Of a DNA stretch of 64,000 bases, positions 1,843-31,677 are shown in pieces. Position 1 is the first letter of the stretch, and every line of letters begins with the position of its first letter. The position numbers and the translations under genes are program-made. The notes below the pieces were generated by a model. That model was given only the letters and a program-made list of their open reading frames with translations, made no database searches and had not been told where the DNA came from. The DNA comes from a virus. Its lineage: Duplodnaviria; Caudoviricetes. The stretch covers positions 20,697-84,696 of the IMG/VR virus record IMGVR_UViG_3300020045_006302. The stretch is one strand, 5' to 3'.

Positions 1843-3246
1843 TTATAGTTTATCGTTAGTTAATTTAAAATAAGATATAAATGCACTATCTGCTGCATTT
1901 GAAAGTGTTATAGAAAAAAATATATATACTGGTTGAGTTATATCTACTATTTGGCCTGTAAATCCTGCGGAATTAGTTAAATAACTTGAAGGTGTAGCAG
2001 TTGCTCTGTGTACGACAATCCAACCTGCATTCTTAAATTTACCTGTTCTTTGTAGTGTTCCACCGCCTGATGTACTTACAAATGTCTGTTCAATCATTGT
2101 AGCTGCGGTAGTTGGGGGAGTGAAAGTAGCGTTATTAGATATATACATCTTTACAACTTTGGATGCTACTTGTGGAGATGTAAAAGTAAAAGATACTTCC
2201 ATTGTTAATGCGCCATAACTAAGTTTATTTGCAGGTACGTCAAATCTTTTAAGTAGTGTTTCTGTTGTAACTCCTGTAATAGGTGTGGAATCACTTGTAT
2301 CCAATAATATCTTTTTTGATGTAGCATCTGTTAATGCATTTTCTACAAATTCAGTATTTGCAATATTTTTAGATACATCCCCTGTTGTTTGGGTGTTTAC
2401 CTTGTTAGAAGTTGTTAATCTAAAACTATCTGTTATACTATTATAGATTAACATATAAGAAATATTAGCATCTATTATACCTGCTTGCAATGCAGAACCT
2501 CCTACAGTTATAGCTTTTGCACCTAAACCATTTATATTTAATGTAGATGCTCCTGTATTTGCAGTAGTAAATCTTATAAAATATTTACTCATATCTGAAT
2601 AAGTTGTTATTGCCGGAGTTAAACTTGCTACATAAGTATCTGTTCCTGTTGTAGTAGCTTTAATTTCTGCATTATTTTGACTTATTTTAGTAAGTAATTT
2701 AGTATCTACATATATCTTTTGGGTATAATCTAAATTTTGTATATTTGCACTATGGTCTATATTAGATATTAATCCTCTTGAATTAGCAGCATCGCTCATT
2801 AAAGTTAAATTCCCATTAACACCTAATACAAGTCTTGTATATGTTAAACTTGTATTTGCATATAATACATTTGTTGTATTATTAATAAATATACCAAAAG
2901 AATTATTATTTGTTGCCATTCCTGTAAGTATATTTATACCTGCATCAATAGCACTGGTAGCAATTCCTATTTCTCCTGTTACTTTTCCTGTAGGTAATGT
3001 TCCAGCTAAAGGTATATAATCTCCTGTTCCACTTCCTCCTGAAAATACTACCCATTCTTCTGCTTCTTCATCATAATTATAATATGTTTTTTCATCTTGT
3101 ACATAAGTTAATAATCCATCATATAAATAAAATATTTCATCTAAATCTTCTACAGTCGGTACGACAAATCTTCTATCTATAGGAGTAAATCCTTGTATTT
3201 CCGTCCCTGTAGGAAGTAAAATACCATTTATATAAGTATATGCCAT
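1843..3246 (-). CDS. Tail fibre / receptor-binding protein
   Basis: N-terminal IDRRFVV..YDGLLTYVQDEKTYY attachment-like domain; TGTDTYVASLTPAITTY..FTTANTGASTLNINGLGAK fibre motif; Thr/Gly/Asn-rich. Confidence 0.7.
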   Translation of the reverse strand: MAYTYINGILLPTGTEIQGFTPIDRRFVVPTVEDLDEIFYLYDGLLTYVQDEKTYYNYDEEAEEWVVFSGGSGTGDYIPLAGTLPTGKVTGEIGIATSAIDAGINILTGMATNNNSFGIFINNTTNVLYANTSLTYTRLVLGVNGNLTLMSDAANSRGLISNIDHSANIQNLDYTQKIYVDTKLLTKISQNNAEIKATTTGTDTYVASLTPAITTYSDMSKYFIRFTTANTGASTLNINGLGAKAITVGGSALQAGIIDANISYMLIYNSITDSFRLTTSNKVNTQTTGDVSKNIANTEFVENALTDATSKKILLDTSDSTPITGVTTETLLKRFDVPANKLSYGALTMEVSFTFTSPQVASKVVKMYISNNATFTPPTTAATMIEQTFVSTSGGGTLQRTGKFKNAGWIVVHRATATPSSYLTNSAGFTGQIVDITQPVYIFFSITLSNAADSAFISYFKLTNDKL

Positions 3247-4760
3247 TATGATAATGTATAATTAATAGTTGAATGTATTTGTAATTCTCTTGTTCTATAC
3301 AAAGTTAAATTACTTGTAGTAGTTCCATTAGCAAGTATTAGAGTAAAATCTTTTTTAATAAAGAATGCAGTAGTACTATCCCATTCTCCAATAGTTAAAG
3401 GAAATCCTGTACTTATTGTAGCATCGCTTTTTGTAGATATAAAATATATATATTCATTAGCCACAGCGATATCTACTGATATTGTAGGATTTGATAATAA
3501 AAATTTAATTATATCTGTATTAATTAGTGTATAATCTTCTTCACTTAAATCTTCATTACCTGATGTACCATACCATTGAGGTATTATTCCTGTAGATGTA
3601 ACTATAGAAGTTTGTGTTACTGTAGTTCCTAACCTATTTATTGTTAAAGTTAAAGTAAATATTACAGTAGTTGCTAAATTACCAACATTTACTGTAGTAC
3701 TTCCTTCATCTACAAATTCTAATACATTTAAACTATATCCGTTATTACCAGTTAATACTGCATTTGTAATAATATCGTTATTACTAATTATATTTAAAGT
3801 TATATTTGTATTTCTATTAACACCTCTTTCTCCCGATGAAGGGCTTATAGTTAAAGATGTAGTTGCATTTTTATGTAATAATTCTCTTATTCCTTCATAT
3901 TCATCTTCTGCTAAGTGAAATCTTTCTGTTACTGTTCCTCCTTGTATTTGTAGTAAATCATTATGTAATGAACTTGTTGAAGGATTTGGTACATCAGGAT
4001 TTATTTGTAAATATGTATTTTCTAATGCAGTAAAATTCAATTCACAAGGTAAACATTTTTTAATAATTTCTAATTGAAATTTTAAATCTAATTCTGCTAA
4101 TTCTTCTTCTGTTATATCTTCTACTATATATTTATTATAAAAATATGCAGCTAAATAAAATATAGATAAATAAAATTTATATAATTTTTCTGAATAATAT
4201 AAATCAAATGTAATTAATCTTTGTTTATTTATTTCTAACAATTCTTCATCTATAAATTCTCTATATAAATATGTAGCATCTTGTAAAAATTGATAAATTT
4301 CATATCCATATGCTTGTTGTCCTACTTCTGCAATTGGTCTTATATTATATATATAAGTCTGCATCATACTCATTAAGTTTTGATATGATATACATCTATT
4401 TGCTTTATCATCGCATTTACAATTTGTACATTTACATTTTTTACATAATAAAGTTTTTAATGAAGGTAATATTATATTATAAAATATACTATTTTGTAAA
4501 TACACTACATAAGAACCTAATAAATCTTCTGTAGTTGCATCTACTATATCTATTATCAAAGGTATTGTATTAAAACCAGGTATATTTGAAGTATTAATTG
4601 ATGCTTCATTTCCTGTTTCTATTACAATAGGATTAATATATTCTTGTACTGGTCTTGTAATATGTACAATAACATTTAAAGGTACTGTACCTATATTATT
4701 CAAAACTACTTCGTCTATTCTTTGGTCTATTGTAACTATTCCTCCTAATTCTAATCCCAT
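3246..4760 (-). CDS. Virion tail structural protein with Cys-rich segment and C-terminal beta-rich (Ig-like) part
   Basis: CKKCKCTNCKC..C cluster; Thr-rich C-terminal half; position between the capsid module and fibre genes. Confidence 0.5.
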   Translation of the reverse strand: MGLELGGIVTIDQRIDEVVLNNIGTVPLNVIVHITRPVQEYINPIVIETGNEASINTSNIPGFNTIPLIIDIVDATTEDLLGSYVVYLQNSIFYNIILPSLKTLLCKKCKCTNCKCDDKANRCISYQNLMSMMQTYIYNIRPIAEVGQQAYGYEIYQFLQDATYLYREFIDEELLEINKQRLITFDLYYSEKLYKFYLSIFYLAAYFYNKYIVEDITEEELAELDLKFQLEIIKKCLPCELNFTALENTYLQINPDVPNPSTSSLHNDLLQIQGGTVTERFHLAEDEYEGIRELLHKNATTSLTISPSSGERGVNRNTNITLNIISNNDIITNAVLTGNNGYSLNVLEFVDEGSTTVNVGNLATTVIFTLTLTINRLGTTVTQTSIVTSTGIIPQWYGTSGNEDLSEEDYTLINTDIIKFLLSNPTISVDIAVANEYIYFISTKSDATISTGFPLTIGEWDSTTAFFIKKDFTLILANGTTTSNLTLYRTRELQIHSTINYTLS

Positions 4761-19007: not shown

Positions 19008-19067
19008 AAATTATATTATAAAAATGTACAAAAATTATATTATTTTCATAAAATTAAATTATATTAT
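19008..19067 (+). repeat. Three copies of AAATTATATTAT at exact 24-bp period
   Basis: Copies at 19008, 19032 and 19056. Confidence 0.7.
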
Positions 19068-19095
19068 TCTCATACAACCATAATCTACAGTTGAT

Positions 19096-19117
19096 GGAAT
19101 GTCTTTGTATAGGGAAA
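19096..19117 (-). repeat. 22-bp dispersed motif copy (TTTCCCTATACAAAGACATTCC)
   Basis: Intergenic; inverted relative to the copy at 18659. Confidence 0.85.
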
Positions 19118-20392: not shown

Positions 20393-20407
20393 CGTAACAA
20401 CCTAACT

Positions 20408-20448
20408 TGCATTGCGGTTCCTACACGGAGCCGTGATGCATTTTATTT
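20408..20448 (+). terminator. Rho-independent terminator
   Basis: TGCATTGCGGTTCC-TACAC-GGAGCCGTGATGCA stem with G-U pairs, then TTTTATTT. Confidence 0.85.
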
Positions 20449-20492
20449 ACCTAATTAATTCAGATTTCTAAACTACACAATTAATATAAATT

Positions 20493-20678
20493 ATGCAATC
20501 ATTTAAAAATATACTTGCAGTAATACTTCTCATACTTGCAACTACTATACTTCTTTCAGACTTCCAAGATGATAATATATTACATTATATATTAATGCTT
20601 CTAACCACTAAAGCAATAGGAGTATTATTAGCAATTAAAGCAATAAAAACTTATAAACCTCAACCAAATGATAAATAG
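20493..20678 (+). CDS. Small two-helix membrane protein
   Basis: Two hydrophobic stretches in 61 aa. Confidence 0.5.
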   Translation: MQSFKNILAVILLILATTILLSDFQDDNILHYILMLLTTKAIGVLLAIKAIKTYKPQPNDK

Positions 20679-21153
20679 CGAAACAATATTTACATTCATA
20701 GTAATATTATCTGTATTAACAATAGCAGTAATATGTTTACTTACATATGTAATTAATACAGTAATTACAAATGATGTTAAAAATGAAGAGAATTATAAAT
20801 CTCTTAAAGAACAATTAAATGAATTAAGAAATTCAAATAATATTATACTTCAATACTTTAAAAAATTAAATAATAAAGAACCTTTATTTACTGTAGAAGA
20901 AGTAGAATTTATACCTTTAAAAGTAATATTAAAAGGTAATAAAGAAAGAATTAAAATAATTGCAGACCTGTATGATAAAGTAGAATATGGAGAATTTAAA
21001 ATATTAGACCGTATATTACTACATGGAATGTCTACAAAAGAATTTGAACATAAATTATATCAAATAGAAGAATATTTTAAAAAATCTCTTATATATGATA
21101 AAGATTTTTACACATCATTAACACAAGAACAATTAAAAGATTTAAAATTATGA
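20668..21153 (+). CDS. Membrane-anchored coiled-coil protein
   Basis: N-terminal TM helix followed by a coil. Confidence 0.55.
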   Translation: MINSETIFTFIVILSVLTIAVICLLTYVINTVITNDVKNEENYKSLKEQLNELRNSNNIILQYFKKLNNKEPLFTVEEVEFIPLKVILKGNKERIKIIADLYDKVEYGEFKILDRILLHGMSTKEFEHKLYQIEEYFKKSLIYDKDFYTSLTQEQLKDLKL

Positions 21154-21764
21154 AAACAATAATACGTTTAGTAGCATCATTAATTACAATTATAGTAATA
21201 TCATTAATAGCACATTACGATAATGAAGAAATTGCAGTAATATTAGGAGGAAGTGGATTTGCATTAGTATGTTTTCTGTTTATATTAGAAGATAGTATAA
21301 TAGAATGGTTTCATAATATTAAAACTGATGAAGAATTAGGATTTAGTAATGAAATTCAAGATTATGGTCCTAAAGAAATGCCTATTAATAATATTCAGAA
21401 AGAATATAATGATAATAAAGTAAAAACTTTAGAAGATAAAGATTATGATTTACCTTATAATACTAATGAAAGTAAAGAAATACCAGTATCAGAAGAATTT
21501 AATTCATATTTTCCTAAATTTCCTAAAGAAGGATTAAAAGTTATTAAAATTTCTATTGAAAAAGGTAAAGATTTTCATAAATATAAAATGTTTAAAGGAT
21601 TAGTAGGAGTAACATTAGGGCAATTTAAAAATAATTGTGTTATTAAATTTCCTACAGAAGATAATAATATAGTTTATAAAGATGTATATCAAGTAGGATT
21701 TGTAAAAGTAAAAGAAAGTGAAAAAAGGATAGAAATTGAAATAAGTAATGAGATAATAGAGTAA
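21150..21764 (+). CDS. Membrane protein (2 N-terminal TM helices, soluble C-terminus)
   Basis: Hydrophobic segments at about residues 3-22 and 28-46. Confidence 0.55.
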   Translation: MKTIIRLVASLITIIVISLIAHYDNEEIAVILGGSGFALVCFLFILEDSIIEWFHNIKTDEELGFSNEIQDYGPKEMPINNIQKEYNDNKVKTLEDKDYDLPYNTNESKEIPVSEEFNSYFPKFPKEGLKVIKISIEKGKDFHKYKMFKGLVGVTLGQFKNNCVIKFPTEDNNIVYKDVYQVGFVKVKESEKRIEIEISNEIIE

Positions 21765-22410
21765 AATGTTGTTGTAGATAATTAAATTTTACTAATTTAT
21801 TATGAAAGTAGGAGTGGATAAGTAGACTCAAGATAATAATACGTACGCCAACACGTTATTCCTTATCCTCTACATAATTCTACTCCTACACATTCATACA
21901 CAACTCAAATAATACTACAATTCTCACATTTACACAATTCTCACAATAATTCAAAATTACTTCAAATTCTTCAAATTTTTAATAAAATTAAATCACAACC
22001 TACAACAATGCAATCAAAATACCCTAAAATACTCAATAAACTAAAATAAAAATAATACGAAAATCACTACAATAATACAAATTTACACATAATCCAAAAT
22101 AATACTTAAATTATTAAAAATTCTTTAAGTTTTTAAGGTTTAGCTTCACTCATTTCCAATAAACCTACAAATAAACCAATAATACTAAAATAAAATACAA
22201 TAATGTAAGTAAAATTCAATATTGATTTTAAAGCCCTCTAAAGGCTCAATTTTCCTAAAATATATCAATACTCATACATAAATTTCCAATTCCGCATAAT
22301 CATCCTGTGTCCTTATATTAAGGTATCAGCCGGTATGCGTAAATTGTTAAAAATTTATAACATATTAATAATCAACATATTATAAAATAGTAAATAAAAT
22401 AATAAATAAA
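21765..22410 (+). other. Non-coding G-depleted tract with flanking hairpins
   Basis: No G in 21856-22009 and only two G in 21856-22128; no ORF. Confidence 0.7.
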
Positions 22411-22707
22411 ATGAATACAACAATAGCACAACAAGAATTAAATAAACTTAAAGATAACGTAATAGGTTTATATAAAGAAAATGATACATATTCATTAGTA
22501 ACTGCAACATATACTAATTCACAAGTAATAAAATATACTAATTCAGATTTAACTTTTGATTGTATTAATATAACTAATTTTGGTATTATACAAGAAGAAT
22601 ACAATAGACCAAATAGAGGAATATTAAAACTATTTCCTGATAATAAAAATATGATACAAATGTTAGAATCTATTACAGATTGGTATAATTTTATAATGGA
22701 ATTTTAA
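22411..22707 (+). CDS. Hypothetical protein
   Basis: First ORF of the long rightward operon. Confidence 0.55.
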   Translation: MNTTIAQQELNKLKDNVIGLYKENDTYSLVTATYTNSQVIKYTNSDLTFDCINITNFGIIQEEYNRPNRGILKLFPDNKNMIQMLESITDWYNFIMEF

Positions 22708-22719
22708 ATAGTAATTAAA

Positions 22720-22941
22720 ATGGCAAAAGATACATATTCAATAGTACAATCTAATATGATTACTAATAAAGATTATACTCCTTATTGTGGTAATGTAAAA
22801 CCTTATTATAATTCAAAAGCCTCTTGTAATAATCCAAGAACATATTGGAATGGAGAACAAATGCAATGTCCTAATTGTGGATGGATTTCTAAATTTACAG
22901 AAGAATTTATAAAAGAATACAAAGAGAAACATAACCTATAA
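22720..22941 (+). CDS. Small Cys-rich (probable zinc-binding) protein
   Basis: PYCGN..CNNPR..CPNCGW. Confidence 0.55.
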   Translation: MAKDTYSIVQSNMITNKDYTPYCGNVKPYYNSKASCNNPRTYWNGEQMQCPNCGWISKFTEEFIKEYKEKHNL

Positions 22942-22955
22942 TAAAATATACAACA

Positions 22956-23270
22956 ATGAATACACCTGAATCATTAAAAGAATTTAAAGCAAAAATAAAT
23001 TCTTTCTATTTAATTATAGAACCTATTGTAAAACATTTTAATAATCCTCAAGAAGAAACAATATTAGTATTACTTCAAAATTTAGGTTTTGATGGAGATA
23101 CTTGTATGAATTATTCATTTGAAGTAGAACAAAAAAGAAGTTTAAATATAATAGAAGCAATACAAAAAGTTGCTGTATATTATGATTATCATTTACTAAA
23201 TTGGATTGTACAAGAAATTCAACATTTAGAAGTAGAAATATATCATTCTGATTTTTTAGAAGAAATTTAA
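22956..23270 (+). CDS. Hypothetical protein
   Basis: Co-oriented packed ORF. Confidence 0.5.
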   Translation: MNTPESLKEFKAKINSFYLIIEPIVKHFNNPQEETILVLLQNLGFDGDTCMNYSFEVEQKRSLNIIEAIQKVAVYYDYHLLNWIVQEIQHLEVEIYHSDFLEEI

Positions 23271-23279
23271 ATATTACTT

Positions 23280-23549
23280 ATGAATAATTTTACTAAAGAA
23301 TGGCTTACATCAACATTAGCACCAGATTCTATTAGGAACATAAAAACAACTGAAAAGCAATATTTAGATTTAATTAAAAATGAAGATAATACTATACATA
23401 TTATGGTAGTTTCTAATGATGAAAAAGTATTAGCAATAGGAGAAAGTTTTGATAGTATATTAAAATCAAAACAATATACTTATATAGAAGCTATAAAAGA
23501 AGTAGCAAGATTATTAAATATTACTAATATATCAATAACAAAATCTTAA
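23280..23549 (+). CDS. Hypothetical protein
   Basis: Co-oriented packed ORF. Confidence 0.5.
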   Translation: MNNFTKEWLTSTLAPDSIRNIKTTEKQYLDLIKNEDNTIHIMVVSNDEKVLAIGESFDSILKSKQYTYIEAIKEVARLLNITNISITKS

Positions 23550-23715
23550 ATGAAAGAATTAACTATAGGAAAACTAATATATACTATAATTTTTGTAGTA
23601 TATATTAGGTGGTTAATAAAAGAATTTAATAATAAAGATAAAATCAAATGATAGCAATATCCACAAATTACTACGACAAAAACGGAAATAATATAACAAT
23701 TAATATATTTAAAAT

Positions 23716-23997
23716 ATGCAAATAATTTACATAATTATACTATTAATATGTGGTATATATTTAATAATAGAAGGAGATAAAAAATCTACTCCTTATTTAT
23801 TTGTAATAGGAGGTATATTTACTGCTGCTTCTATTATAGGAACTTGTATATATGTAGATAAAACATATATAAAAGATAAACCTAAATACGAAATTCAATT
23901 ATTAAATCAAACAGATGTAATAATTAAAACAGAAACACAATTAGATACTATTAAATTTGATAGTATAAATAATTATATATTAAAAGATAATTTATAA
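23716..23997 (+). CDS. Small membrane protein
   Basis: Two hydrophobic helices, then QTDVIIK..DTIKF like 26992..27210. Confidence 0.5.
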   Translation: MQIIYIIILLICGIYLIIEGDKKSTPYLFVIGGIFTAASIIGTCIYVDKTYIKDKPKYEIQLLNQTDVIIKTETQLDTIKFDSINNYILKDNL

Positions 23998-24269
23998 TGA
24001 AAGCAAGTTACGTTAAAAAACCAATAATAATTGAAGCTATTCAATGGAATGGTACTTCTAAATCTCATAAAGAACTTAATGATTTTATAGGAGAAGACTT
24101 AAAAACAAGTAATGGACATACTACTAAATTATTAATTCCTACTTTAGAAGGAATTATGGAAGCTTCTGTAGGAGATTTTATTATTAAAGGTATAAAAGGA
24201 GAATTCTATCCATGTAAACCTGATATATTTAATGATTCTTATGAACTTGTAGAACTTTTAAATTTATAA
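23997..24269 (+). CDS. PTLEG/PGDYG-like small phage protein
   Basis: YVKKPIIIEAIQW..IPTLEG..GDFIIKGIKGEFYPCKPDIF..SYE family signature. Confidence 0.7.
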   Translation: MKASYVKKPIIIEAIQWNGTSKSHKELNDFIGEDLKTSNGHTTKLLIPTLEGIMEASVGDFIIKGIKGEFYPCKPDIFNDSYELVELLNL

Positions 24270-24472
24270 TAAATAAAACTTAAATTAAAATGTTAACAAC
24301 AATAATATTCTTCCTATCATTACTATCATCAATATTATTACTAATTATTGTATCAACAATTGATAATTATAATATATCAAATAAAATACAAGATATAATA
24401 GTACTAATTACAGCATTAATAACTGCATTCTTATGGAGTTATTTATATTACTTATCACATTAAATAAAAAAT

Positions 24473-24721
24473 ATGAAAAAAATATACTGTGAATTACATT
24501 TAGATTTTCTAAATACATTAATAAATAATACAGATGTTAAACATGAAGTAATAACAAATACAACTACTATAAGATATTTAGTATTAGTTACATTTCATGA
24601 AGAACAAGATGTAAAAGATTTTATAGAAATAAAAGATACTTTTAAAAAACAATATAATTTAAAAACTTCTAATAATATGTATTATAATATACATGATAAA
24701 GTAGAAACTATATTTAATTAA
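24473..24721 (+). CDS. Hypothetical protein
   Basis: Co-oriented ORF. Confidence 0.45.
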   Translation: MKKIYCELHLDFLNTLINNTDVKHEVITNTTTIRYLVLVTFHEEQDVKDFIEIKDTFKKQYNLKTSNNMYYNIHDKVETIFN

Positions 24722-24776
24722 TTAAAATAATATACTAATTAAACATTGAAATAATCATCACTTAAAAATATCAAAT

Positions 24777-25271
24777 ATGTCAACAACAAAACAAGCAGTA
24801 ATATCATTAGAAACTGCAAAAGAAGCTTATAAATCAGGTTCAAATCTATTAGTAAAATTTGCATTAGGTAATTTTACAAAAGAAGAATTAGAAGAAGTAG
24901 AATTGCCTAATAAATGGGAGGATTTAGATTATATTAAAGGATTTTATGTAGATAGTATGTCTATAATTAAACCGTATTCTCAACCTACTTCAAATGCAGG
25001 TAAAAATACATTTCCTACTAAAGAATATGCAGAAGCAGCTTTAGCATTATCTCAATTACTTCAACTAAGGCAAGTATATATAGGAGATTGGGTTCCTGAT
25101 TATAAAAGTGAAGGATATACTGTATATTCAATTTATGTATATAAATGTAAATTAGATACAGGAGTATTTGTAAATACACAACATATATTAAGTTTTCCTA
25201 CATCAGAATTAAGAGATAAATTCTATAATAGTTTTAAAGATTTATTAGAAATAGCAAAACCATTATTATAA
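24777..25271 (+). CDS. Hypothetical protein of a family common in Bacteroidota phages
   Basis: LP.KWEDL..IKGFYV..FPTKEYAEAALALSQLLQLR..GDWVPD..LSFPT.ELRDKF pattern. Confidence 0.55.
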   Translation: MSTTKQAVISLETAKEAYKSGSNLLVKFALGNFTKEELEEVELPNKWEDLDYIKGFYVDSMSIIKPYSQPTSNAGKNTFPTKEYAEAALALSQLLQLRQVYIGDWVPDYKSEGYTVYSIYVYKCKLDTGVFVNTQHILSFPTSELRDKFYNSFKDLLEIAKPLL

Positions 25272-25453
25272 TGAAAAATTCAATACAAGCAATGTTAATA
25301 TGTATTATATCAGCAATAATATTATATTTACTTCTACTATATCAATTTAAATTAGAAGAAAATTTAGCACAATTAATTACATTTCTATACTATATTATAA
25401 GAATAGAAATAAAAGAAGTTCAATATGATATCCAAGATATTAAAAAGAAATAG
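25271..25453 (+). CDS. Small membrane protein
   Basis: 60 aa, hydrophobic; its TAG stop overlaps the first base of the ribozyme. Confidence 0.5.
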   Translation: MKNSIQAMLICIISAIILYLLLLYQFKLEENLAQLITFLYYIIRIEIKEVQYDIQDIKKK

Positions 25454-25517
25454 CCGAAATACCTATTAATTTAGGTATCTTACAGAGATAATCTACTGTA
25501 ACTGATGAGGCAGATTA
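25453..25517 (+). ncRNA. Type II hammerhead ribozyme
   Basis: GCC-GAAA-UACCU/AGGUA-UC (cleavage after 25479)-UUACAG/CUGUAA-CUGAUGA-GGC; full catalytic core; loop I UAAUCU (25489-94) can pair with the 3' tail AGAUUA (25512-17). Confidence 0.9.
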
Positions 25518-25539
25518 ATTAACAATTAAATATAATAAT

Positions 25540-25827
25540 ATGAGTAAATTATACACAGAAGAAAAAGTAAAAGAATTATTAACATCTTTATTATTTAAAA
25601 GTCCTTCGATGGTATTTTTATATCCTGATGAAACTGTAAATGATATTGATTATAAAGGTATGTTTGGTTTTAATAATTGGATTAAAGATAATCTAAATAA
25701 TGAAAATCAAAATTCAGATATAAAAGAACATCTACAATTTATATATCAACGTATGAGATTAAATCACGGAGAAAGTTCTAATGTAGATTATATGATTAAA
25801 TTTGAAGAAATAATAAATAACCTTTAA
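25540..25827 (+). CDS. Hypothetical protein
   Basis: Co-oriented ORF after the ribozyme. Confidence 0.5.
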   Translation: MSKLYTEEKVKELLTSLLFKSPSMVFLYPDETVNDIDYKGMFGFNNWIKDNLNNENQNSDIKEHLQFIYQRMRLNHGESSNVDYMIKFEEIINNL

Positions 25828-25839
25828 TATATAAATACA

Positions 25840-26172
25840 ATGTCAGCTACTAAAAATAGAATGCAATGGAATACAACAGAAGATAAAATATTAGAAGAAG
25901 AAATGTTAAAAACTACTTTTAATAAAGAAAGTTATATTATACTTGCAGAAACTTTAAATAGAACAGAAGATTCTGTTAAATCAAGAGCAAGTAAATTAAG
26001 AAGTAAATGGAAATTAAAAGAAGAAATACAAGAAACTTTTAAACCAAAAGAAGTAGATAATAGTAATGATTACGTTATAGTACAAGGTAAAATAAACTTT
26101 GGTGCTATTACTTTAGAAGGAGAATTTACTATTAAAGGTGCTTTTACTATTAAACCTATTAAAAATACATAA
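25840..26172 (+). CDS. Myb/SANT-like HTH protein
   Basis: WNTTEDKIL..LAETLNRTEDSVKSRASKL. Confidence 0.6.
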   Translation: MSATKNRMQWNTTEDKILEEEMLKTTFNKESYIILAETLNRTEDSVKSRASKLRSKWKLKEEIQETFKPKEVDNSNDYVIVQGKINFGAITLEGEFTIKGAFTIKPIKNT

Positions 26173-26184
26173 TAAATTAATTTT

Positions 26185-26241
26185 AGAATAGTAAGAGATA
26201 ATTAATATTAATAATATAATTTCGGAAACTCTTACTATTCT
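26185..26241. repeat. Perfect 13-bp inverted repeat with 31-nt AT-rich spacer
   Basis: AGAATAGTAAGAG (26185-97) / CTCTTACTATTCT (26229-41), intergenic. Confidence 0.75.
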
Positions 26242-26259
26242 TTTAAAATATATAATAAA

Positions 26260-26484
26260 ATGATAAAAAAATCTTTTTTAAAATGGTCAGAATGGCAAAC
26301 AGGATACATAAAGTTTAATAATAATGTACAAATATCATATTCAATATATAGTTGGGCATTACCTATAAATATAGAAATTGCTTCATATATAATATTTATT
26401 GATATATTATGTTTTGGAATAAGTTTTCATACATATAAAAGCCCTTGGAGTAAAAGATATAAAAACAAAAATAAAAACAAATAA
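26260..26484 (+). CDS. Small Trp/aromatic-rich hypothetical protein
   Basis: Co-oriented ORF. Confidence 0.45.
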   Translation: MIKKSFLKWSEWQTGYIKFNNNVQISYSIYSWALPINIEIASYIIFIDILCFGISFHTYKSPWSKRYKNKNKNK

Positions 26485-26486
26485 AC

Positions 26487-26732
26487 ATGAAAAAACTTTA
26501 CATTATTTTACTATTAATAACATTAACAGTAAATGCAAGAGAAAAATTAAGAATACCAAATCCGGTACAAAATGAAATATATGTAGAAAATGCTACATAT
26601 ATTAAAATATTCACATTACAAGGAAGATTAGTATGTGAAATACAATCTAATAAAATAGATGTATCAGGATTAGCTACAGGAATGTATTTTGTAGTAACAA
26701 ATGTAGGAGAATGTACAATAATTAAAAACTAA
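26487..26732 (+). CDS. Signal peptide plus T9SS type-A C-terminal sorting domain, no passenger
   Basis: MKKLYIILLLITLTVNA signal; IPNP..IKIFTLQGRLV..IDVSGLATGMYFV..IIKN matches the Por secretion tail consensus. Confidence 0.8.
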   Translation: MKKLYIILLLITLTVNAREKLRIPNPVQNEIYVENATYIKIFTLQGRLVCEIQSNKIDVSGLATGMYFVVTNVGECTIIKN

Positions 26733-26734
26733 TT

Positions 26735-26992
26735 ATGGACAATAAATTAAAAGTTTGGGAAATACTTCAAAATTTAATAAAAATAAATTTTAAATTATAT
26801 GAAACTTTAATAGATAATTATGCTTATTATTTTGATAAAGTTAGTAAATTAGCCGAAAGAGATTATAATTCTTATCGGGAAACTACAGAAGATTTAGGAG
26901 AAATATTAGTAAATTTTGATTATAAAGAAATACTAAAAGAAGATGATAAATTTTTAGAAGAATTTGAAAAACTAATAAAAATGATTAAATAA
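26735..26992 (+). CDS. Hypothetical protein
   Basis: Co-oriented ORF. Confidence 0.45.
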   Translation: MDNKLKVWEILQNLIKINFKLYETLIDNYAYYFDKVSKLAERDYNSYRETTEDLGEILVNFDYKEILKEDDKFLEEFEKLIKMIK

Positions 26993-27210
26993 TGAAAAAT
27001 AATTTACACATTCCAATATTTATAATAATAGGTATATTATATCTATCATTTATTCCTATTAAAACAGGAAATAGACAAATAGAATTTCCTGAAGAAATAG
27101 GATTAATACAAAAAGGAGATACAATAGTAATACATAGAAATAATGGAAACATTAAAATAGAATATTATCGTAAACCTGTAATAGATGGGACTTTATATAT
27201 AGTAAAATGA
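26992..27210 (+). CDS. Small membrane-anchored protein
   Basis: N-terminal TM helix; GDTIVI motif. Confidence 0.45.
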   Translation: MKNNLHIPIFIIIGILYLSFIPIKTGNRQIEFPEEIGLIQKGDTIVIHRNNGNIKIEYYRKPVIDGTLYIVK

Positions 27211-27518
27211 ATATCTCTATTCAATATACTCAGTACAAAAATAATATATATAGAGGAACTGTATTTGAATTAATAGATATATTAGAAAATAATTATTTTT
27301 CTATATACGAAAGTGATGATAAATCTACTTTATATTTAAAAGATAGTAAAGAAAATAAAACTTATGAATCTTTATATAGAAATGTAATATATTGTAGAAA
27401 ACATAAAAAACAATATGCAAAAGGTACATTAGATATGTATCATTATACAATTTGGCAATTAGCTAAAAAGAGTGAAAGACTAAAAGATTTACTTAAACAA
27501 TTTAATAATTATACTTAA
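27207..27518 (+). CDS. Hypothetical protein
   Basis: Co-oriented ORF. Confidence 0.45.
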   Translation: MNISIQYTQYKNNIYRGTVFELIDILENNYFSIYESDDKSTLYLKDSKENKTYESLYRNVIYCRKHKKQYAKGTLDMYHYTIWQLAKKSERLKDLLKQFNNYT

Positions 27519-27524
27519 TTAAAA

Positions 27525-27674
27525 ATGAAACCAAGAATTACAACAGGAAAATTAGTAACATCAACTAATCCAATAACAAGAAGTTTATCTTCAAGATTTA
27601 ATATAGAAGTACGATATACTCAATCGTATCGTACAATAGAAAGAACTTATAAAGATGTAGACTTTAAATGTTAA
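27525..27674 (+). CDS. 49-aa basic peptide (below the ORF track cutoff)
   Basis: MKPRITTGKLVTSTNPITRSLSSRFNIEVRYTQSYRTIERTYKDVDFKC, A-rich start context. Confidence 0.4.
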   Translation: MKPRITTGKLVTSTNPITRSLSSRFNIEVRYTQSYRTIERTYKDVDFKC

Positions 27675-27702
27675 ATCCGGCTTAAAACTGGATTTTATTT
27701 TT
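27673..27702 (+). terminator. Rho-independent terminator
   Basis: AAATCCGG-CTTAAAA-CTGGATTT, then TATTTTT. Confidence 0.65.
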
Positions 27703-27709
27703 ATCTTTG
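27702..27709 (+). promoter_or_regulatory. Bacteroidota sigma-A -7 element (TAnnTTTG)
   Basis: TATCTTTG(CA) right after a terminator; no clear -33 TTG. Confidence 0.45.
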
Positions 27710-27838
27710 CAACTGGTTAGTAATAGGCACATTGAGTGCTGAAATTGGGCATGTGAGCCATTAATTTGGTCGTAGTATAGTTAGGTGTGGTTATTTAATT
27801 TGCTTGCCTTACATCGAAGATTTTAGCATTCTTTATGC

Positions 27839-27860
27839 TTTCCCAATAGAAAGATAATCA
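27839..27860 (+). repeat. 22-bp dispersed motif copy (TTTCCCAATAGAAAGATAATCA)
   Basis: Intergenic, 22 nt upstream of the GroES-like ATG. Confidence 0.9.
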
Positions 27861-27882
27861 ATAACTTAAATATATAATAAAA

Positions 27883-28284
27883 ATGATTAATGTAAATTCA
27901 ATTAATTTATCAGCAGGATTAATACTTGTAGACGTAGATGAAGCATATAAAGTAGTAGAAGCTAAAAAAAGAAATAAAGCAATAAGTAATACTATTACTA
28001 CGGGAGTTGTTATTTCCGATGCTCAAATAGATGAATATGGAAGAAAACAACAAATGCGTACAGGTAAAGTAATGAAAATGTCTAATGACGTAAAAGAAAC
28101 TTTAAAGGTAAGAAAAGATGGACTGGAAGTTCTTGTAGAGGGAAGCGTTATAGTCTTTAATGCTTTAGCAATGGAAACATTTGATATACCTATATATGAA
28201 GAATCCGGAGAAGTAAGAAAAGAATTTAAAAATACTGCAACAATGCATATTAACTCTGTAATTGCAGAATTAAAAAATGAATGA
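27883..28284 (+). CDS. groES: GroES-like co-chaperonin
   Basis: LSAGLILVD / TTGVVISD / RTGKVMKM / VEGSVIVF line up with the GroES strands and mobile loop. Confidence 0.6.
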   Translation: MINVNSINLSAGLILVDVDEAYKVVEAKKRNKAISNTITTGVVISDAQIDEYGRKQQMRTGKVMKMSNDVKETLKVRKDGLEVLVEGSVIVFNALAMETFDIPIYEESGEVRKEFKNTATMHINSVIAELKNE

Positions 28285-28507
28285 AATTCCGTCAATACCT
28301 ATAATACTATTAATAATAGATAGTAGATATTCTGAATTAAGTACATTTAATCCCTACAAAGCTACTGTAGGGATTTTTCAATATATACAAGAAGATGAAA
28401 CAGTAATTCATCTTATAAAACCTACTGCACAATATAAAAATATTGGTATAGTAAGTAGAAAATCGGATATAACTATAGTTGACCAAATAATCATTAACTT
28501 AAATTAA
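28277..28507 (+). CDS. Hypothetical protein containing an intragenic terminator
   Basis: 76-aa ORF overlapping the groES stop. Confidence 0.4.
   Translation: MNEIPSIPIILLIIDSRYSELSTFNPYKATVGIFQYIQEDETVIHLIKPTAQYKNIGIVSRKSDITIVDQIIINLN
28349..28378 (+). terminator. Rho-independent terminator inside ORF 28277..28507
   Basis: AATCCCTACA-AAGCTAC-TGTAGGGATT 10-bp stem followed by a T-run. Confidence 0.6.
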
Positions 28508-28690
28508 ATGGATTTAAGTAAATATCCAAGATTAGTAGGAAAACCCATTCCTATAGAAAATATGTCAAAAGCATATTTACAAAATCAAATAGAAAGAATT
28601 AACCATGTAAAAGTAAATAAACCTTATAAAGAAAATTTACTTAAAGAATTAAAACATAAACTAACATTTAGATTTAAATACTTAAAATAA
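28508..28690 (+). CDS. Small hypothetical protein
   Basis: PIENMSKAYLQN pattern; packed ORF. Confidence 0.45.
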   Translation: MDLSKYPRLVGKPIPIENMSKAYLQNQIERINHVKVNKPYKENLLKELKHKLTFRFKYLK

Positions 28691-28696
28691 GATATT

Positions 28697-28912
28697 ATGA
28701 GAGAAAGAAACACAATAGATGCTATAATTAAAAGAGCAAAAATTACATTAGAAATGCATGCTAATCAATTTATAGGTAAAAATCCTTATGTATTTACACC
28801 TAAAGAAGAAAGAGCAGAAGCTATGAAAAATACAAGTACTTCTAATAAATTTAGAGTAAAGAAAAGATTAGCTAAAAAAGCACGTAAACAAATGTATGCA
28901 AATCGTAAATAA
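28697..28912 (+). CDS. Small basic hypothetical protein
   Basis: Packed ORF. Confidence 0.45.
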   Translation: MRERNTIDAIIKRAKITLEMHANQFIGKNPYVFTPKEERAEAMKNTSTSNKFRVKKRLAKKARKQMYANRK

Positions 28913-28915
28913 AAA

Positions 28916-29329
28916 ATGACATATAACGGAGAAATTAAAGAATTAAAATCTAATCAAGTATTTGTATTTGGTTCCAATACTCAAGGTAGACATGGAAAAG
29001 GTGCAGCATTAATAGCTAAAAGATTTTTTGGCGCTAAATACGGACAAGCAAAAGGAATACAAGGACAATCTTATGCAATAGTAACTAAAGATATATCCTC
29101 TTATCCTTATAAAAGTATGTCAAAAGATTATATTATAAATGAAATTAAGCATTTATATCAATTTGCTGTAATACATCCATATAAAGAATTTTATATAGCA
29201 TACAAAGGAAATGGAATTAATTTAAATGGATATTCTTCTATAGAAATGGCAGAAATGTTTAGTTTTTATCCTATACCTATTAATATAATATTTGAAGAAA
29301 CGTTCAAAGATTTAATAAAAAGTAATTAA
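28916..29329 (+). CDS. A1S_2505-family macrodomain-like phage protein
   Basis: VFVFGSN..GRHGKGAAL.A...FGA.YG...G.QGQSYAI.TK signature. Confidence 0.75.
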   Translation: MTYNGEIKELKSNQVFVFGSNTQGRHGKGAALIAKRFFGAKYGQAKGIQGQSYAIVTKDISSYPYKSMSKDYIINEIKHLYQFAVIHPYKEFYIAYKGNGINLNGYSSIEMAEMFSFYPIPINIIFEETFKDLIKSN

Positions 29330-29333
29330 AATT

Positions 29334-29645
29334 ATGAATATAAACGAAACTATTTATATAATATCTCCAGTAGAATTATATGGAAAATTTGTACCTAATT
29401 CTGCTCAAATATTAAAAGCAAAAGTAATTGAAATCTTAAAAGATAAATTAACTGTTGAAATAGATTTAGGAGAAGGTAGAATACAAATTAAAACTGTAAC
29501 AGAACCTTATTATAAAACTTTTCATGATGCTTTACCTCATATGGAAACTTTTATTAATAATAAAGTTAAAGTATTAAATGAAAATGAATATAAAGGAGAA
29601 GATATACCTTCAGATGGAAGTAATAGATATTTAACAGAAGTTTAA
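29334..29645 (+). CDS. Hypothetical protein
   Basis: Packed ORF. Confidence 0.45.
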   Translation: MNINETIYIISPVELYGKFVPNSAQILKAKVIEILKDKLTVEIDLGEGRIQIKTVTEPYYKTFHDALPHMETFINNKVKVLNENEYKGEDIPSDGSNRYLTEV

Positions 29646-29649
29646 TATT

Positions 29650-30330
29650 ATGAATATATTAGTATTTGATACAGAAACTAATGACCAAGCTAAAAACTTT
29701 AAACTTAAAGCTGAGGAAGATTTAAATAATTATCCTTATATAGTTCAACTATCAGCAAAGTTAATTAAAGTTGATATAGATGAAGATAAATGGTTAGTAG
29801 CACATACAAAAGATAAATCAGTTACAGTTACAGAATTATTTATATTAGATAATTTAATATCTCCTTATAGAGATGGAAATATAATAGAAATTTCTAATGG
29901 AGCATATGATGTTCATGGTATATCTGTCAATGATTGTATTAATGAAGGTTTTGATATAACAGAAAGGTTAATATTATTTCAAGGAATGCTATCAATGGCA
30001 GATGTAATTATAGCACATAATATAAACTTTGATAGAAATGTAATTGTTTCTGAATTTCTACGATTAGGATTAAAACCTTTAATTCGTAAAAAATCAATAG
30101 TATGGTGTAGTATGTTAAATACAATGTACGTATGTAATCTAAAAGGTAAAATACCAGGACAACCAAAATGGCCTACATTATCAGAATTATATAAACATTT
30201 ATTTAATATAGAATTAGGAACTATTCATAAAGCACATGATGCTATGGGAGATGTTAATGCTACTGTCGATTGTGTAGTAGAATTACTTAAAAGAGAAATT
30301 ACATTATTTCAAACGAATAAGAGAGAATGA
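29650..30330 (+). CDS. DEDDh 3'-5' exonuclease (DnaQ-like)
   Basis: VFDTET, AHNINFD, AHDAMGD. Confidence 0.9.
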   Translation: MNILVFDTETNDQAKNFKLKAEEDLNNYPYIVQLSAKLIKVDIDEDKWLVAHTKDKSVTVTELFILDNLISPYRDGNIIEISNGAYDVHGISVNDCINEGFDITERLILFQGMLSMADVIIAHNINFDRNVIVSEFLRLGLKPLIRKKSIVWCSMLNTMYVCNLKGKIPGQPKWPTLSELYKHLFNIELGTIHKAHDAMGDVNATVDCVVELLKREITLFQTNKRE

Positions 30331-30333
30331 CAG

Positions 30334-31677
30334 ATGCAGTTAAATGATGAACAGCAACAAGCAGCAGAAACATTACAAACATGGCTTAATAAATCTTCTG
30401 ATAAAAAAGATTTAATTAGAACTTTAAGTGGATTTGCTGGTACAGGTAAATCCACAGTTGCTAATGAAATACTAAGAGGACAAAGAGATGTTGTAGTTTC
30501 TGCTCCTACTCATAAAGCACGTAAAGTTATTGAGAATAAAACCCATAAACCAAGTGAAACAGTACAAGCTTTATTAGGATTAAGACCTGATGTAGAATTA
30601 GATAATTTTAATCCTAATAAACCTGTATTTAATTTATTAGCAGAAGAAAAAATAAAGTATTTTAAAACAATAGTAATTGATGAAGGGTCTATGGTTAATA
30701 ATAGTGCCCGAATAATGATTGAAGAAAAAGCACAAAAGTATGGTACAAAAATACTATATATAGGAGATGCATTACAACTTGCACCAGTAGGAGAAAATAT
30801 ATCTACAGTATTTACTAAATATCCTTTAACATCTTTAAATACAATTGTAAGACAAGAAGATAGTAATCCTAATACAAAATTAATTGAATTATCAAGAAAT
30901 GATGTATTATATGGAACTTCTACATTTTTACCTTATTTAAATAGTATTAAACAAGATATGCATAATGGAGAAGGATTTAAACTTCTACCAATGGAAGGAT
31001 TTTATAAAGGAATATTAGAACATTATTTTAATTCTGAATATGCTGTAGATTATGATTATGCTAAAACTATTTGTTATTCTAACGATACAGTTAAGAAAAT
31101 AAATAAGTATATAAGAAATCAAGTAAATAGAAATACTGAATTAGTAGCAAAAGGAGATGTATTAATGGGATATAATACTGTAAGTTTACAGATAATGGAT
31201 GCTCCTTATTATAGGCCTTTGATTAGTAATTCAGAAGATTATATTGTACAAAGTTCAGAATTAATAGAATTACCAATAGAAGGAACAGTATATACTGGCT
31301 ATAGAGTTAAATTACAATTAGTAGATGAATATCTATTTATTCTACATCCGTTATCTTATAAAGATTTTTATGATGAAATTTATAGAAGAATGGATGAAGC
31401 TAAATTATTTAAAAAATGGCCTGCATATTATAGATTTAAAAATCAGATACTTGTAATGGATGATTTTTACTATCCTGATAATAAAACATTATTAGTAAAA
31501 AAAGATATTGACTATGGATATTCTCTTACAGTACACAAGGCACAAGGCTCTACATATAAAAATGTAGGTATAGTACTTAAAGATATAGAAAGTTGTTATA
31601 AGATAGCTGATAGACGTAGATTACGATATGTAGCATTATCTCGTACAAGTAAAAATAACTTAATTTATGCCAAGTAA
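30334..31677 (+). CDS. SF1B helicase, Dda/RecD-like
   Basis: GFAGTGKS, APTHKA, IDEGSM, GDALQL, TVHKAQGST, RYVALSR. Confidence 0.9.
   Translation: MQLNDEQQQAAETLQTWLNKSSDKKDLIRTLSGFAGTGKSTVANEILRGQRDVVVSAPTHKARKVIENKTHKPSETVQALLGLRPDVELDNFNPNKPVFNLLAEEKIKYFKTIVIDEGSMVNNSARIMIEEKAQKYGTKILYIGDALQLAPVGENISTVFTKYPLTSLNTIVRQEDSNPNTKLIELSRNDVLYGTSTFLPYLNSIKQDMHNGEGFKLLPMEGFYKGILEHYFNSEYAVDYDYAKTICYSNDTVKKINKYIRNQVNRNTELVAKGDVLMGYNTVSLQIMDAPYYRPLISNSEDYIVQSSELIELPIEGTVYTGYRVKLQLVDEYLFILHPLSYKDFYDEIYRRMDEAKLFKKWPAYYRFKNQILVMDDFYYPDNKTLLVKKDIDYGYSLTVHKAQGSTYKNVGIVLKDIESCYKIADRRRLRYVALSRTSKNNLIYAK

What the first reader, a model, noticed from the sequence alone, without database searches (positions are those of the whole stretch)
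26487..26732. Cargo-less T9SS substrate: signal peptide fused directly to a Por secretion C-terminal domain
Seen: an 81-aa ORF made of a Sec signal peptide (ending TVNA) followed at once by a type-A CTD (PNP, IFTLQGRLV, IDVSGLATGMYFV, IIKN), with no passenger domain. Established: this CTD routes proteins through the Bacteroidota T9SS (SprA/PorV, PorU sortase), which supports gliding adhesins and surface proteins, some used as phage receptors. Inference: a phage decoy that jams or competes for the T9SS, giving superinfection exclusion or immobilising the host. It also points to a T9SS-positive host such as Flavobacteriaceae.
Basis: partly seen in the sequence, partly recalled or inferred. Interest (0 to 1): 0.8.

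Follow-up and report, generated by a model that had tools for sequence, protein, structure and literature searches.

The report
Phage-encoded bare T9SS sorting domain
A crAss-like phage of a Bacteroidota host carries a small conserved gene that encodes only an export signal plus the tag read by the host's type IX secretion system. It probably docks on that system and may obstruct it, but this has not been tested.

Summary
Window 26487..26732 (+) is a real 81-codon gene. Residues 1-17 form a Sec-type signal peptide. Residues about 20-81 form a complete, compact type-A T9SS C-terminal domain (CTD): PF18962 scores 39.5 bits against a cut-off of 27, and TIGR04183 scores 32.4 against 23. The AF2 model is a beta-sandwich whose best PDB match is the NucA CTD bound to SprA-PorV. 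There is no passenger domain and no sign of a gene remnant.

The genome is an 84.7-kb, 25.7% GC, distant crAss-like phage. Two syntenic phage contigs carry 81-aa orthologues at 54-62% identity. That matches their helicase and DNA polymerase, whereas most neighbouring small ORFs have no detectable counterpart. dN/dS is 0.2-0.7.

One deviation stands out. The near-invariant Lys at position -5 of CTD motif E is Thr in all three phage copies.

The "decoy/jam" reading remains untested. Bacteria also encode SP+CTD mini-proteins, so the architecture is not phage-specific and need not be inhibitory. Phage-encoded T9SS cargo is already published, but I found no paper on a cargo-less form. This scan has noted similar phage mini-CTDs on other DNA (e1-5357633, e1-5829737).

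The parts
26487..26732 (+). Complete gene for the 81-aa mini-CTD protein (stop codon included)
   Evidence: ORF list. 81-aa orthologues at 62% and 54-56% identity sit in the syntenic phage contigs L002 and L003. dN/dS is 0.21-0.69. GC is 23.2%, the same as its flanks, and GC3 is 7%.
26472..26474 (+). In-frame TAA five codons upstream of the start, which excludes an N-terminal extension or remnant
   Evidence: Sequence. The open frame is 85 aa.
26487..26537 (+). Predicted Sec (SPase I) signal peptide, residues 1-17, cleaved after V-N-A
   Evidence: Hydropathy and the -3/-1 rule. The model shows a low-confidence helix at residues 3-12 that is separate from the domain. The orthologues keep MKK, a hydrophobic core and x-N-A.
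26538..26729 (+). Type-A T9SS C-terminal sorting domain, which makes up the whole mature protein (residues 18-81; HMM match 24-78)
   Evidence: PF18962 and TIGR04183 score above their cut-offs. A profile built from A3 hits 8glk_D at 1e-9 and 8glj_D at 2e-8. Fold match: Z 8.0 to 8glk_D. The invariant residues P24, P26, G46, D58, G65 and Y67 are shared with cellular CTDs.
26715..26729 (+). Atypical motif E (T-I-I-K-N): Thr replaces the near-invariant Lys at position -5, while Lys at -2 is kept
   Evidence: Of 112 non-redundant cellular CTDs ending hydrophobic-hydrophobic-K-x, 95 have K and 6 have R at -5. All three phage copies have C-T at -6/-5. The literature describes this Lys as important (PMC10994853, PMC10202324, PMC11285876).
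22411..27695 (+). Context: a run of about 25 tightly packed small + strand ORFs that contains the gene and ends at a terminator-like hairpin (27673-27695). It lies upstream of the replication genes and is presumed early or middle
   Evidence: ORF lists. Terminator scan. PIF1-like helicase, PolA and helicase lie downstream. The timing is inferred from position only.

Best explanation
The gene encodes a minimal client of the host's type IX secretion system. Shown here: it is a real, conserved phage gene whose product is a Sec signal peptide followed at once by a complete, compact type-A CTD. Inferred: Sec exports the protein to the periplasm and signal peptidase I removes the leader. The 64-residue beta-sandwich then docks, like any type-A CTD, in the pocket formed by the PorV loops and the SprA translocon. 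It carries no passenger and has no linker for the PorU sortase to cut. It also lacks the first Lys of motif E, which the literature says is needed for efficient transport rather than for binding. I therefore expect it to dwell on PorV/SprA, as the uncleaved CTDs of PorU and PorZ do on PorV, instead of being processed and released. When made in quantity from the phage's small-ORF (presumed early) block, it would compete with host type-A cargo for the shuttle and translocon. That would thin out T9SS-dependent surface proteins and secreted enzymes during infection. The likely benefit to the phage is fewer receptors, giving exclusion of superinfecting phages and less loss of progeny on infected cells or debris, and possibly less secreted protease or nuclease. 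That the protein is a T9SS client I rate at about 0.7-0.85. The inhibitory outcome I rate at about 0.4.
For: Gene and domain identity.

Selective retention: the orthologues in L002 and L003 have the same length and the same start, with a gapless alignment. They are 54-62% identical, which equals the PIF1 helicase (55-56%) and PolA (61%). No window ORF between 19 and 26.4 kb finds a match in L002. dN/dS is 0.21-0.69, and a Ser codon has switched from TCA to AGT. Composition is fully adapted to the phage.

Binding plausibility: model type-A substrates bind purified SprA-PorV in vitro without energy input. CTD recognition is by shape and hydrophobic contacts, not by conserved residues (PMC10994853).

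Motif-E deviation: it is conserved in all three copies and rare in cellular CTDs. Basic residues are absent from both -5 and -6 in only 3 of 112. The Lys is called almost invariant and functionally important, with its primary role said to lie elsewhere in the transport process rather than in binding.

Uncleaved CTDs persist: those of PorU and PorZ are not removed (PMC11285876).

Pay-off: mutations in T9SS and gliding genes make F. psychrophilum resistant to phages, and T9SS-secreted adhesins are suspected receptors (PMC9804748).

Position: the gene sits in a block of small ORFs upstream of the replication genes.
Against: Nothing shows that the protein is made, exported, bound to PorV or inhibitory. 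The host is unknown. Bacteria encode conserved SP+linker+CTD mini-proteins of their own: Croceivirga MAG L007 and its relative L048, Chryseobacterium L043, and ESM Atlas clusters of 88-109 aa. A bare CTD can therefore be a normal client. A minority of cellular CTDs also lack Lys at -5, including the Chryseobacterium mini-protein. A study cited in PMC11285876 found that 16 point mutations across the RgpB CTD revealed no indispensable side chain. Competition would need high expression, and that is unknown. Only three orthologues exist, so the selection statistics are weak, and dS is distorted by the extreme AT bias.
Confidence: 0.4

Rival explanations
1. It is an ordinary, non-inhibitory mini T9SS client. 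The phage copy would do whatever the uncharacterised bacterial SP+CTD mini-proteins do, for example act as a small PorV-associated or surface-exposed component or as a modulator of shuttle traffic. The phage would supply or replace it as an auxiliary gene, and T9SS would not be blocked.
For: Cellular mini-proteins with the same layout are real and conserved. The tandem pair in L007 recurs in L048, and L043 holds a 116-aa example with a full-length TIGR04183 match. The nearest ESM Atlas clusters by sequence features are Bacteroidota proteins of 88-109 aa that carry only PF18962, with 53-187 members each. A cell is unlikely to jam its own T9SS.
Against: The phage protein is more minimal, with about 3 residues before the CTD against 11-18 in the cellular ones. 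It is not a close homologue of any cellular mini-protein: identity to L007 and L048 is 31-32%. It also carries the conserved motif-E substitution. No function is known for the cellular proteins, so this reading explains little.
Confidence: 0.28
2. It is a carrier or adaptor. The mini-CTD would bind a phage or host protein that has no T9SS signal of its own and take it through, or anchor it at, the T9SS. Earlier scan reports proposed this for tiny CTD proteins paired with tag-less fibres in Bacteroidota chromosomes.
For: In L007 the two mini-proteins follow a 721-aa repeat protein that has no CTD. Scan notes e1-2342740, e1-5296645 and e1-4417542 describe conserved pairs of mini-CTD and fibre.
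Against: The phage gene has no conserved neighbour. The adjacent ORFs differ between the window and L002/L003, lack signal peptides, and have no Pfam or PHROG hits. A 64-residue domain with no extra residues offers no obvious partner-binding module.
Confidence: 0.1
3. It is a periplasmic or outer-membrane beta-sandwich that acts on a target other than the T9SS. It would be derived from a CTD but re-purposed, for example as a small inhibitor of another envelope protein or receptor.
For: The fold is a generic Ig-like sandwich, and many unrelated PDB domains score Z 6-7.6. Motif E is altered. Small exported phage proteins commonly block envelope receptors (own knowledge, e.g. T5 Llp).
Against: Both CTD HMMs score above their curated cut-offs, and the other CTD motifs are retained: PxP, the beta3-beta4 Gly, D-x-S-x-L-x-x-G-x-Y and the terminal K. 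The best structural and sequence matches are CTDs caught on SprA-PorV.
Confidence: 0.1
4. It is a neutral leftover: the two ends of a captured host T9SS cargo gene joined by deletion of the passenger, with no function.
For: It is very short. There is no PHROG family and no relative in INPHARED or IMG/VR beyond this clade.
Against: It is retained intact, at the same length and with the same start, in three phages whose core genes are only 54-61% identical. Meanwhile the surrounding small ORFs have turned over. dN/dS is below 1. Composition is fully ameliorated.
Confidence: 0.07

Closest known systems
Type-A T9SS C-terminal sorting domains (TIGR04183 / PF18962), e.g. the F. johnsoniae NucA and FspA CTDs solved on SprA-PorV (PDB 8GLK, 8GLJ; Lauber et al. 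2024, PMC10994853)
   Same: The HMMs score above their cut-offs. It has the same seven-strand sandwich (Z 8.0 and 7.2, 29-33% identity), the same conserved fold motifs and the same C-terminal position, and it is preceded by a Sec signal.
   Different: No passenger or linker precedes it. It is a compact 62-residue form, a length that some cellular CTDs also have. Lys at -5 of motif E is replaced by Thr. It is encoded by a phage.
Bacterial SP+CTD mini-proteins (uncharacterised; annotated only as 'T9SS type A sorting domain-containing protein'), e.g. the Croceivirga MAG tandem pair (L007 2558..2866 and 3001..3321), the Chryseobacterium schmidteae 116-aa protein (L043 2223..2573), and ESM Atlas clusters of 88-109 aa
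   Same: A signal peptide plus a CTD, with no recognisable passenger.
   Different: The cellular proteins keep an 11-18 residue linker and are 102-116 aa long. Identity to the phage protein is only 31-32% (L007, L048). Their function is unknown. They are chromosomal, and in L007 they sit next to a CTD-less repeat protein.
Phage-encoded T9SS cargo ('Cryophage' endoglucanase, GH39 and PA14 proteins, Bellas et al. 2020, PMC7468147; BFVD entries such as A0A218MM41, A0A6J5L910)
   Same: These are phage genes that carry the host's type-A sorting domain and presumably use the host T9SS.
   Different: They have passengers and are 174-1047 aa long, with enzymes or binding domains. Here there is none, so the gene cannot deliver an activity.
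Non-cleaved CTDs of PorU and PorZ, which remain attached and hold these proteins on PorV (PMC11285876)
   Same: A type-A CTD that is expected not to be removed by the sortase, and so could stay PorV-bound.
   Different: PorU and PorZ are large T9SS components with an extra hairpin in the CTD. Persistence of the phage protein on PorV is my inference and has not been shown.
Small exported phage proteins that block envelope receptors or machines, e.g. T5 Llp on FhuA (own knowledge); compare the phage 'pilin stub' mimics noted in this scan
   Same: It is small, carries a signal peptide, lies in the presumed early region of the phage, and has a plausible role in exclusion.
   Different: There is no homology, so this is an analogy of logic only. 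The target here would be a secretion system approached through its own substrate-recognition signal.

Membership tests
T9SS type-A C-terminal sorting domain (TIGR04183 / PF18962) | Match to the family HMMs above the curated thresholds | tested here: met
   PF18962 scores 39.5 bits (cut-off 27) and TIGR04183 scores 32.4 bits (cut-off 23).
T9SS type-A C-terminal sorting domain (TIGR04183 / PF18962) | The domain lies at the extreme C-terminus of the protein | tested here: met
   The HMM match runs to residue 77-78 of 81. Alignment with cellular CTDs and with 8glk_D runs to the last residue.
T9SS type-A C-terminal sorting domain (TIGR04183 / PF18962) | Ig-like seven-strand beta-sandwich fold | tested here: met
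   In the AF2 model, residues 21-81 have pLDDT 84-97. The best PDB match is the NucA CTD 8glk_D (Z 8.0, rmsd 2.1 A over 61 residues), followed by the mirolase, FspA, RemZ, RemA, PorZ and RgpB CTDs at Z 6.2-7.5. Unrelated sandwiches score nearly as high, so the fold alone would not decide membership.
T9SS type-A C-terminal sorting domain (TIGR04183 / PF18962) | Conserved motifs: PxP, the Gly at the beta3-beta4 turn, D-x-S-x-L-x-x-G-x-Y, and the two lysines of motif E (K-x-x-K-x) | tested here: inconclusive
   P24, P26, G46, D58, G65, Y67 and K80 are present and invariant. The first motif-E Lys (-5) is Thr in all three orthologues. K or R occupies this position in 101 of 112 cellular CTDs.
T9SS substrate (cargo protein) | N-terminal Sec signal peptide | tested here: met
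   The n/h/c regions and the -3/-1 rule are satisfied and are conserved in the orthologues. This is a heuristic check only, because no SignalP was available.
T9SS substrate (cargo protein) | A passenger domain between the signal peptide and the CTD | tested here: not met
   About 2-3 residues separate the predicted cleavage site (after residue 17) from the first CTD strand (residue about 20).
T9SS substrate (cargo protein) | The host has a T9SS; export depends on SprA/PorV; PorU removes the CTD | not testable with these tools
   The host is unknown.
Crassvirales-like phage (context) | crAss-type terminase, portal and major capsid protein; a giant ORF; two opposed gene arms | tested here: met
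   The PHROG hits are to major head protein phrog_11589, portal phrog_6547 and TerL phrog_6681. TerL is 30% identical to crAss-like phages cr60_1 and others, and 149 records match, including phages of Bacteroides, Flavobacterium psychrophilum and Cellulophaga. A 5,062-aa ORF is present. Formal taxonomy was not tested.

The most novel reading that the evidence does not exclude
[quoted passage not shown] It would be a 'stalled substrate' that binds the PorV-SprA pocket through a normal CTD fold but cannot be extracted or processed, because it has no passenger, no PorU site and Thr in place of the motif-E Lys. Phages of T9SS-bearing Bacteroidota would then use such bare sorting domains (type A here; type A and type B in other phages noted by this scan) as a recurrent device to strip T9SS-dependent receptors from the cell and exclude competitors.
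Probability: 0.3. Interest if true: 0.8.

Novelty: new variant of a known kind. Interest (0 to 1): 0.55.

Why it matters
I found no published natural protein inhibitor of the T9SS in my literature searches. How CTDs are recognised, extracted and cleaved is an active question. A 64-residue CTD selected by a phage, with one informative substitution, would be a ready-made probe. It separates binding from transport, it can be tested directly in F. johnsoniae, and it would suit structural work on SprA-PorV.

For phage biology, it would link two facts that are currently separate. Flavobacterial phages depend on T9SS and gliding functions for infection, and phages carry T9SS-tagged genes.

Even if it is not inhibitory, it draws attention to a widespread and unstudied class of bacterial SP+CTD mini-proteins.

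Tried and rejected
Nothing can be said about binding from it.

Searches that found no further relatives or no useful signal:
- tblastn of the protein against INPHARED phages found no match.
- Megablast of 14 kb around the gene found no match.
- The IMG/VR scan found no relative.
- The metagenome and genome scans found no further close orthologue, only cellular CTDs and mini-proteins.
- The scan with alignment A3 failed for lack of a conserved stretch.
- PHROGs gave no family for the protein or for most neighbours.
- Pfam gave nothing for ten neighbours.
- Foldseek against PDB gave only weak E-values (4e-3 and above) among generic sandwiches. The VIA re-alignment was clearer.
- The word-indexed profile search and the short hits of the exhaustive search yielded only CTD fragments without signal peptides. 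They are not further mini-proteins.
- A type-B CTD (TIGR04131) was not found in the phage, but the control rang nowhere, so this is uninformative.
- The sigma-70 promoter scan was no better than shuffles.
- Rfam found nothing in 18500-30500.

Readings I rejected:
- Gene remnant or frameshift: there is an in-frame stop five codons upstream, and the orthologues start at the same Met.
- Lipoprotein: the window copy has no Cys, and the orthologues have Val at -1 of the Cys.
- Signal anchor: the hydrophobic core is only about 12 residues.
- Spanin or lysis role: wrong architecture and wrong location.
- CTD hits in other INPHARED records (H21, H23): these are ordinary cargo of 199 and 568 aa.

Full report
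OBSERVATION. An in-frame TAA lies five codons upstream, and the stop-to-stop frame is only 85 codons. The protein therefore cannot be the tail of a longer reading frame.

Residues 1-17 have the layout of a cleavable Sec signal peptide: MKK, a 12-residue hydrophobic core, and V-N-A. SignalP was not available, so this rests on hydropathy and the -3/-1 rule.

Residues 24-78 match both curated models of the type-A T9SS sorting domain above their thresholds. PF18962 scores 39.5 bits against 27, and TIGR04183 scores 32.4 against 23.

An AF2 model built on an 18-sequence alignment gives pLDDT 84-97 for residues 21-81, folded as a small beta-sandwich. A profile of that alignment hits the F. johnsoniae NucA and FspA CTDs at 1e-9 and 2e-8. 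These CTDs were solved on the SprA-PorV translocon. The best structural match after re-alignment is the NucA CTD (8glk_D: Z 8.0, rmsd 2.1 A over 61 residues, 33% identity). The CTDs of mirolase, FspA, RemZ, RemA, PorZ and RgpB follow at Z 6.2-7.5. Generic Ig-like sandwiches score almost as well, so the sequence models carry the assignment and the fold is merely consistent with it.

Only 2-3 residues separate the predicted signal-peptidase site from the first CTD strand. There is no passenger.

CONTEXT. The window is bases 20697-84696 of an 84,696-bp virus record with 25.7% GC. The major capsid protein, portal and large terminase hit crAss-type PHROGs. TerL is about 30% identical to crAss-like phages. 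Its 149 matching records include phages of Bacteroides, Flavobacterium psychrophilum, Cellulophaga and Azobacteroides. The phage is thus a distant crAss-like phage of a Bacteroidota host.

The nearest cellular CTDs that carry names come from Flavobacteriales, Flavobacteriaceae or Bacteroidota MAGs. Together with the very low GC, this points weakly to a low-GC member of the Flavobacteriales.

The gene lies in a run of about 25 tightly packed small + strand ORFs (22.4-27.7 kb). The run ends at a terminator-like hairpin and lies upstream of the PIF1-like helicase, PolA and a second helicase. I therefore presume early or middle expression, but nothing here measures timing. This is the only PF18962 match in the phage.

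IS IT A REAL, SELECTED GENE? Two other phage contigs (L002 and L003, from Logan assemblies) carry an 81-residue orthologue in the same position relative to the helicase and polymerase. The alignment is gapless, with the same start and the same stop position.

Identity is 62% and 54-56%. That equals the helicase (55-56%) and PolA (61%). No window ORF between 19 and 26.4 kb finds any match in the 4 kb upstream of the L002 orthologue, and the immediate neighbours are unrelated. The gene is an island of conservation in a fast-turning region.

dN/dS is 0.21 between the two closer copies and 0.45-0.69 against the window copy. These numbers are rough, because GC3 is 7% and only three sequences exist. 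A Ser codon has changed from TCA to AGT while the residue was kept. Gene composition equals that of its flanks, so this is not a recent capture.

A DEVIATION WORTH NOTING. Cellular type-A CTDs end with motif E, K-hydrophobic-hydrophobic-K-x. Position -5 is Lys in 95 and Arg in 6, and only 3 have no basic residue at -5 or -6. All three phage copies have Cys-Thr at -6/-5 and keep only the Lys at -2.

By position from the C-terminus, -5 corresponds to RemZ Lys1110. It also corresponds to the lysines at residue 71 of the 75-residue NucA and FspA CTD chains. Lauber et al. call this residue almost invariant and functionally important. They note that it touches PorV in every structure but in non-conserved ways, and they conclude that its primary role lies elsewhere in the transport process (PMC10994853). 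Reviews state that the motif-E lysines are needed for efficient secretion (PMC10202324), and a conserved Lys in strand beta7 is also noted for P. gingivalis and T. forsythia CTDs (PMC11285876).

Several caveats apply. The correspondence rests on alignment from the C-terminus. My sample of cellular CTDs was gathered by similarity to the phage protein. A minority of working CTDs lack this Lys. Sixteen point mutations in the RgpB CTD showed no indispensable side chain.

THE ARCHITECTURE IS NOT UNIQUE TO PHAGES. A pattern scan of bacterial genomes turned up a Croceivirga MAG with two tandem genes of 102 and 106 codons. Each is a signal peptide, an 11-18 residue linker and a full-length TIGR04183 domain. 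They lie just after a 721-residue repeat protein that has no CTD. The same pair recurs in a metagenome contig.

Chryseobacterium schmidteae has a 116-residue example among its 87 CTD matches. The nearest ESM Atlas clusters by sequence features are Bacteroidota proteins of 88-109 residues that carry only PF18962, with 53-187 members each. I found no paper that discusses them.

Earlier reports of this scan describe tiny CTD proteins paired with tag-less fibres in Bacteroidota chromosomes. They also describe two other phage mini-CTDs: an 87-residue type-A one in a marine Flavobacteriaceae phage, and a type-B one. These are leads only and I could not see their sequences. They do mean that the scan has met this theme before on other DNA.

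PHAGE-ENCODED T9SS-TAGGED PROTEINS ARE ALREADY KNOWN. Bellas et al. reported three in 'Cryophage' and proposed hijacking of the host system (PMC7468147). BFVD holds several viral proteins of 174-1047 residues with this domain. Two INPHARED hits proved to be ordinary cargo of 199 and 568 residues. What is new here is the absence of any cargo.

MECHANISM. Shown: gene, signal peptide, CTD, conservation. Established elsewhere: type-A CTDs are recognised by PorV and the SprA translocon through shape and hydrophobic contacts. Model type-A substrates bind purified SprA-PorV without energy input, energy is needed to extract substrates, and PorV then shuttles them to PorU, which cuts off the CTD (PMC10994853, PMC12618676). 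The uncleaved CTDs of PorU and PorZ persist (PMC11285876).

Inferred: the phage protein is exported by Sec and docks on PorV-SprA. It has no passenger and no linker for PorU, and it has a weakened motif E, so it dwells there and competes with host cargo.

The pay-off would be loss of T9SS-dependent surface proteins. In F. psychrophilum, about 40% of phage-resistance mutations fell in T9SS or gliding genes. Secreted adhesins such as RemA and SprB are suspected receptors (PMC9804748). This makes superinfection exclusion, or protection of progeny from adsorption to spent cells, a sensible benefit.

I rate the client part at 0.7-0.85 and the inhibitory outcome at about 0.4. Immobilisation of the host is the least supported element, because SprB uses a type-B CTD and SprF-type shuttles.

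RIVALS. Four rival readings remain:
- A benign mini-client equivalent to the bacterial ones (0.28).
- A carrier for a tag-less partner (0.10). This is weakened by the lack of any conserved neighbour.
- A re-purposed sandwich acting on another envelope target (0.10).
- A neutral leftover (0.07). This is contradicted by retention of the gene.

LIMITS. The host is unknown and there are no expression data. Only three orthologues were found, despite an exhaustive search of 1.84 billion representatives.

VERDICT. The gene is a new variant (cargo-less, phage-borne) of a known kind (phage-encoded T9SS-tagged proteins and T9SS CTDs). It is moderately interesting and directly testable.

Noticed in passing
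window 57062-64000 (-) and the rest of the record (G000 1-8386): The 2,236/2,312-aa ORF at the window's end is only the C-terminal part of a single open frame of 5,062 aa. This frame runs across the ends of the record once the 121-bp terminal repeat is collapsed. The 'DTR' therefore lies inside a gene and is probably an assembly overlap of a circular or permuted genome. The ORF has no PHROG hit.
   Followed up: partly
window 25453-25517: An earlier scan note (e1-5895041) proposes a type II hammerhead ribozyme here. An Rfam search of 18500-30500 at E <= 0.1 found no family at all.
   Followed up: partly
window 27696-27882: This non-coding stretch of about 190 bp follows the terminator-like hairpin (27673-27695). 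It could be a promoter region or a small RNA.
   Followed up: no
window 19000-26486 versus L002 1-4123: The small-ORF region upstream of the mini-CTD gene shares no detectable protein homology between the window phage and its relative L002, although their replication genes are 54-61% identical. This is a hypervariable early region.
   Followed up: partly
L007 244-3321 (Croceivirga MAG) and L048 1301-2065: Two tandem bacterial SP+linker+CTD mini-genes (102 and 106 aa) are conserved between two sources. In L007 they lie directly after a 721-aa repeat protein that has no CTD. A LuxE-like acyl-protein synthetase gene lies downstream. The function of such mini-proteins is unknown.
   Followed up: partly
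L043 2223-3591 (Chryseobacterium schmidteae): A 116-aa SP+CTD mini-protein, which also lacks Lys at -5, sits next to an ABC-transporter ATPase. The ATPase resembles GldA but scores below that model's cut-off (163 bits against 402).
   Followed up: no
window 45014-47122: A 702-aa protein matches RIIA-type PHROGs (phrog_612, E 8e-56) in this crAss-like genome.
   Followed up: no
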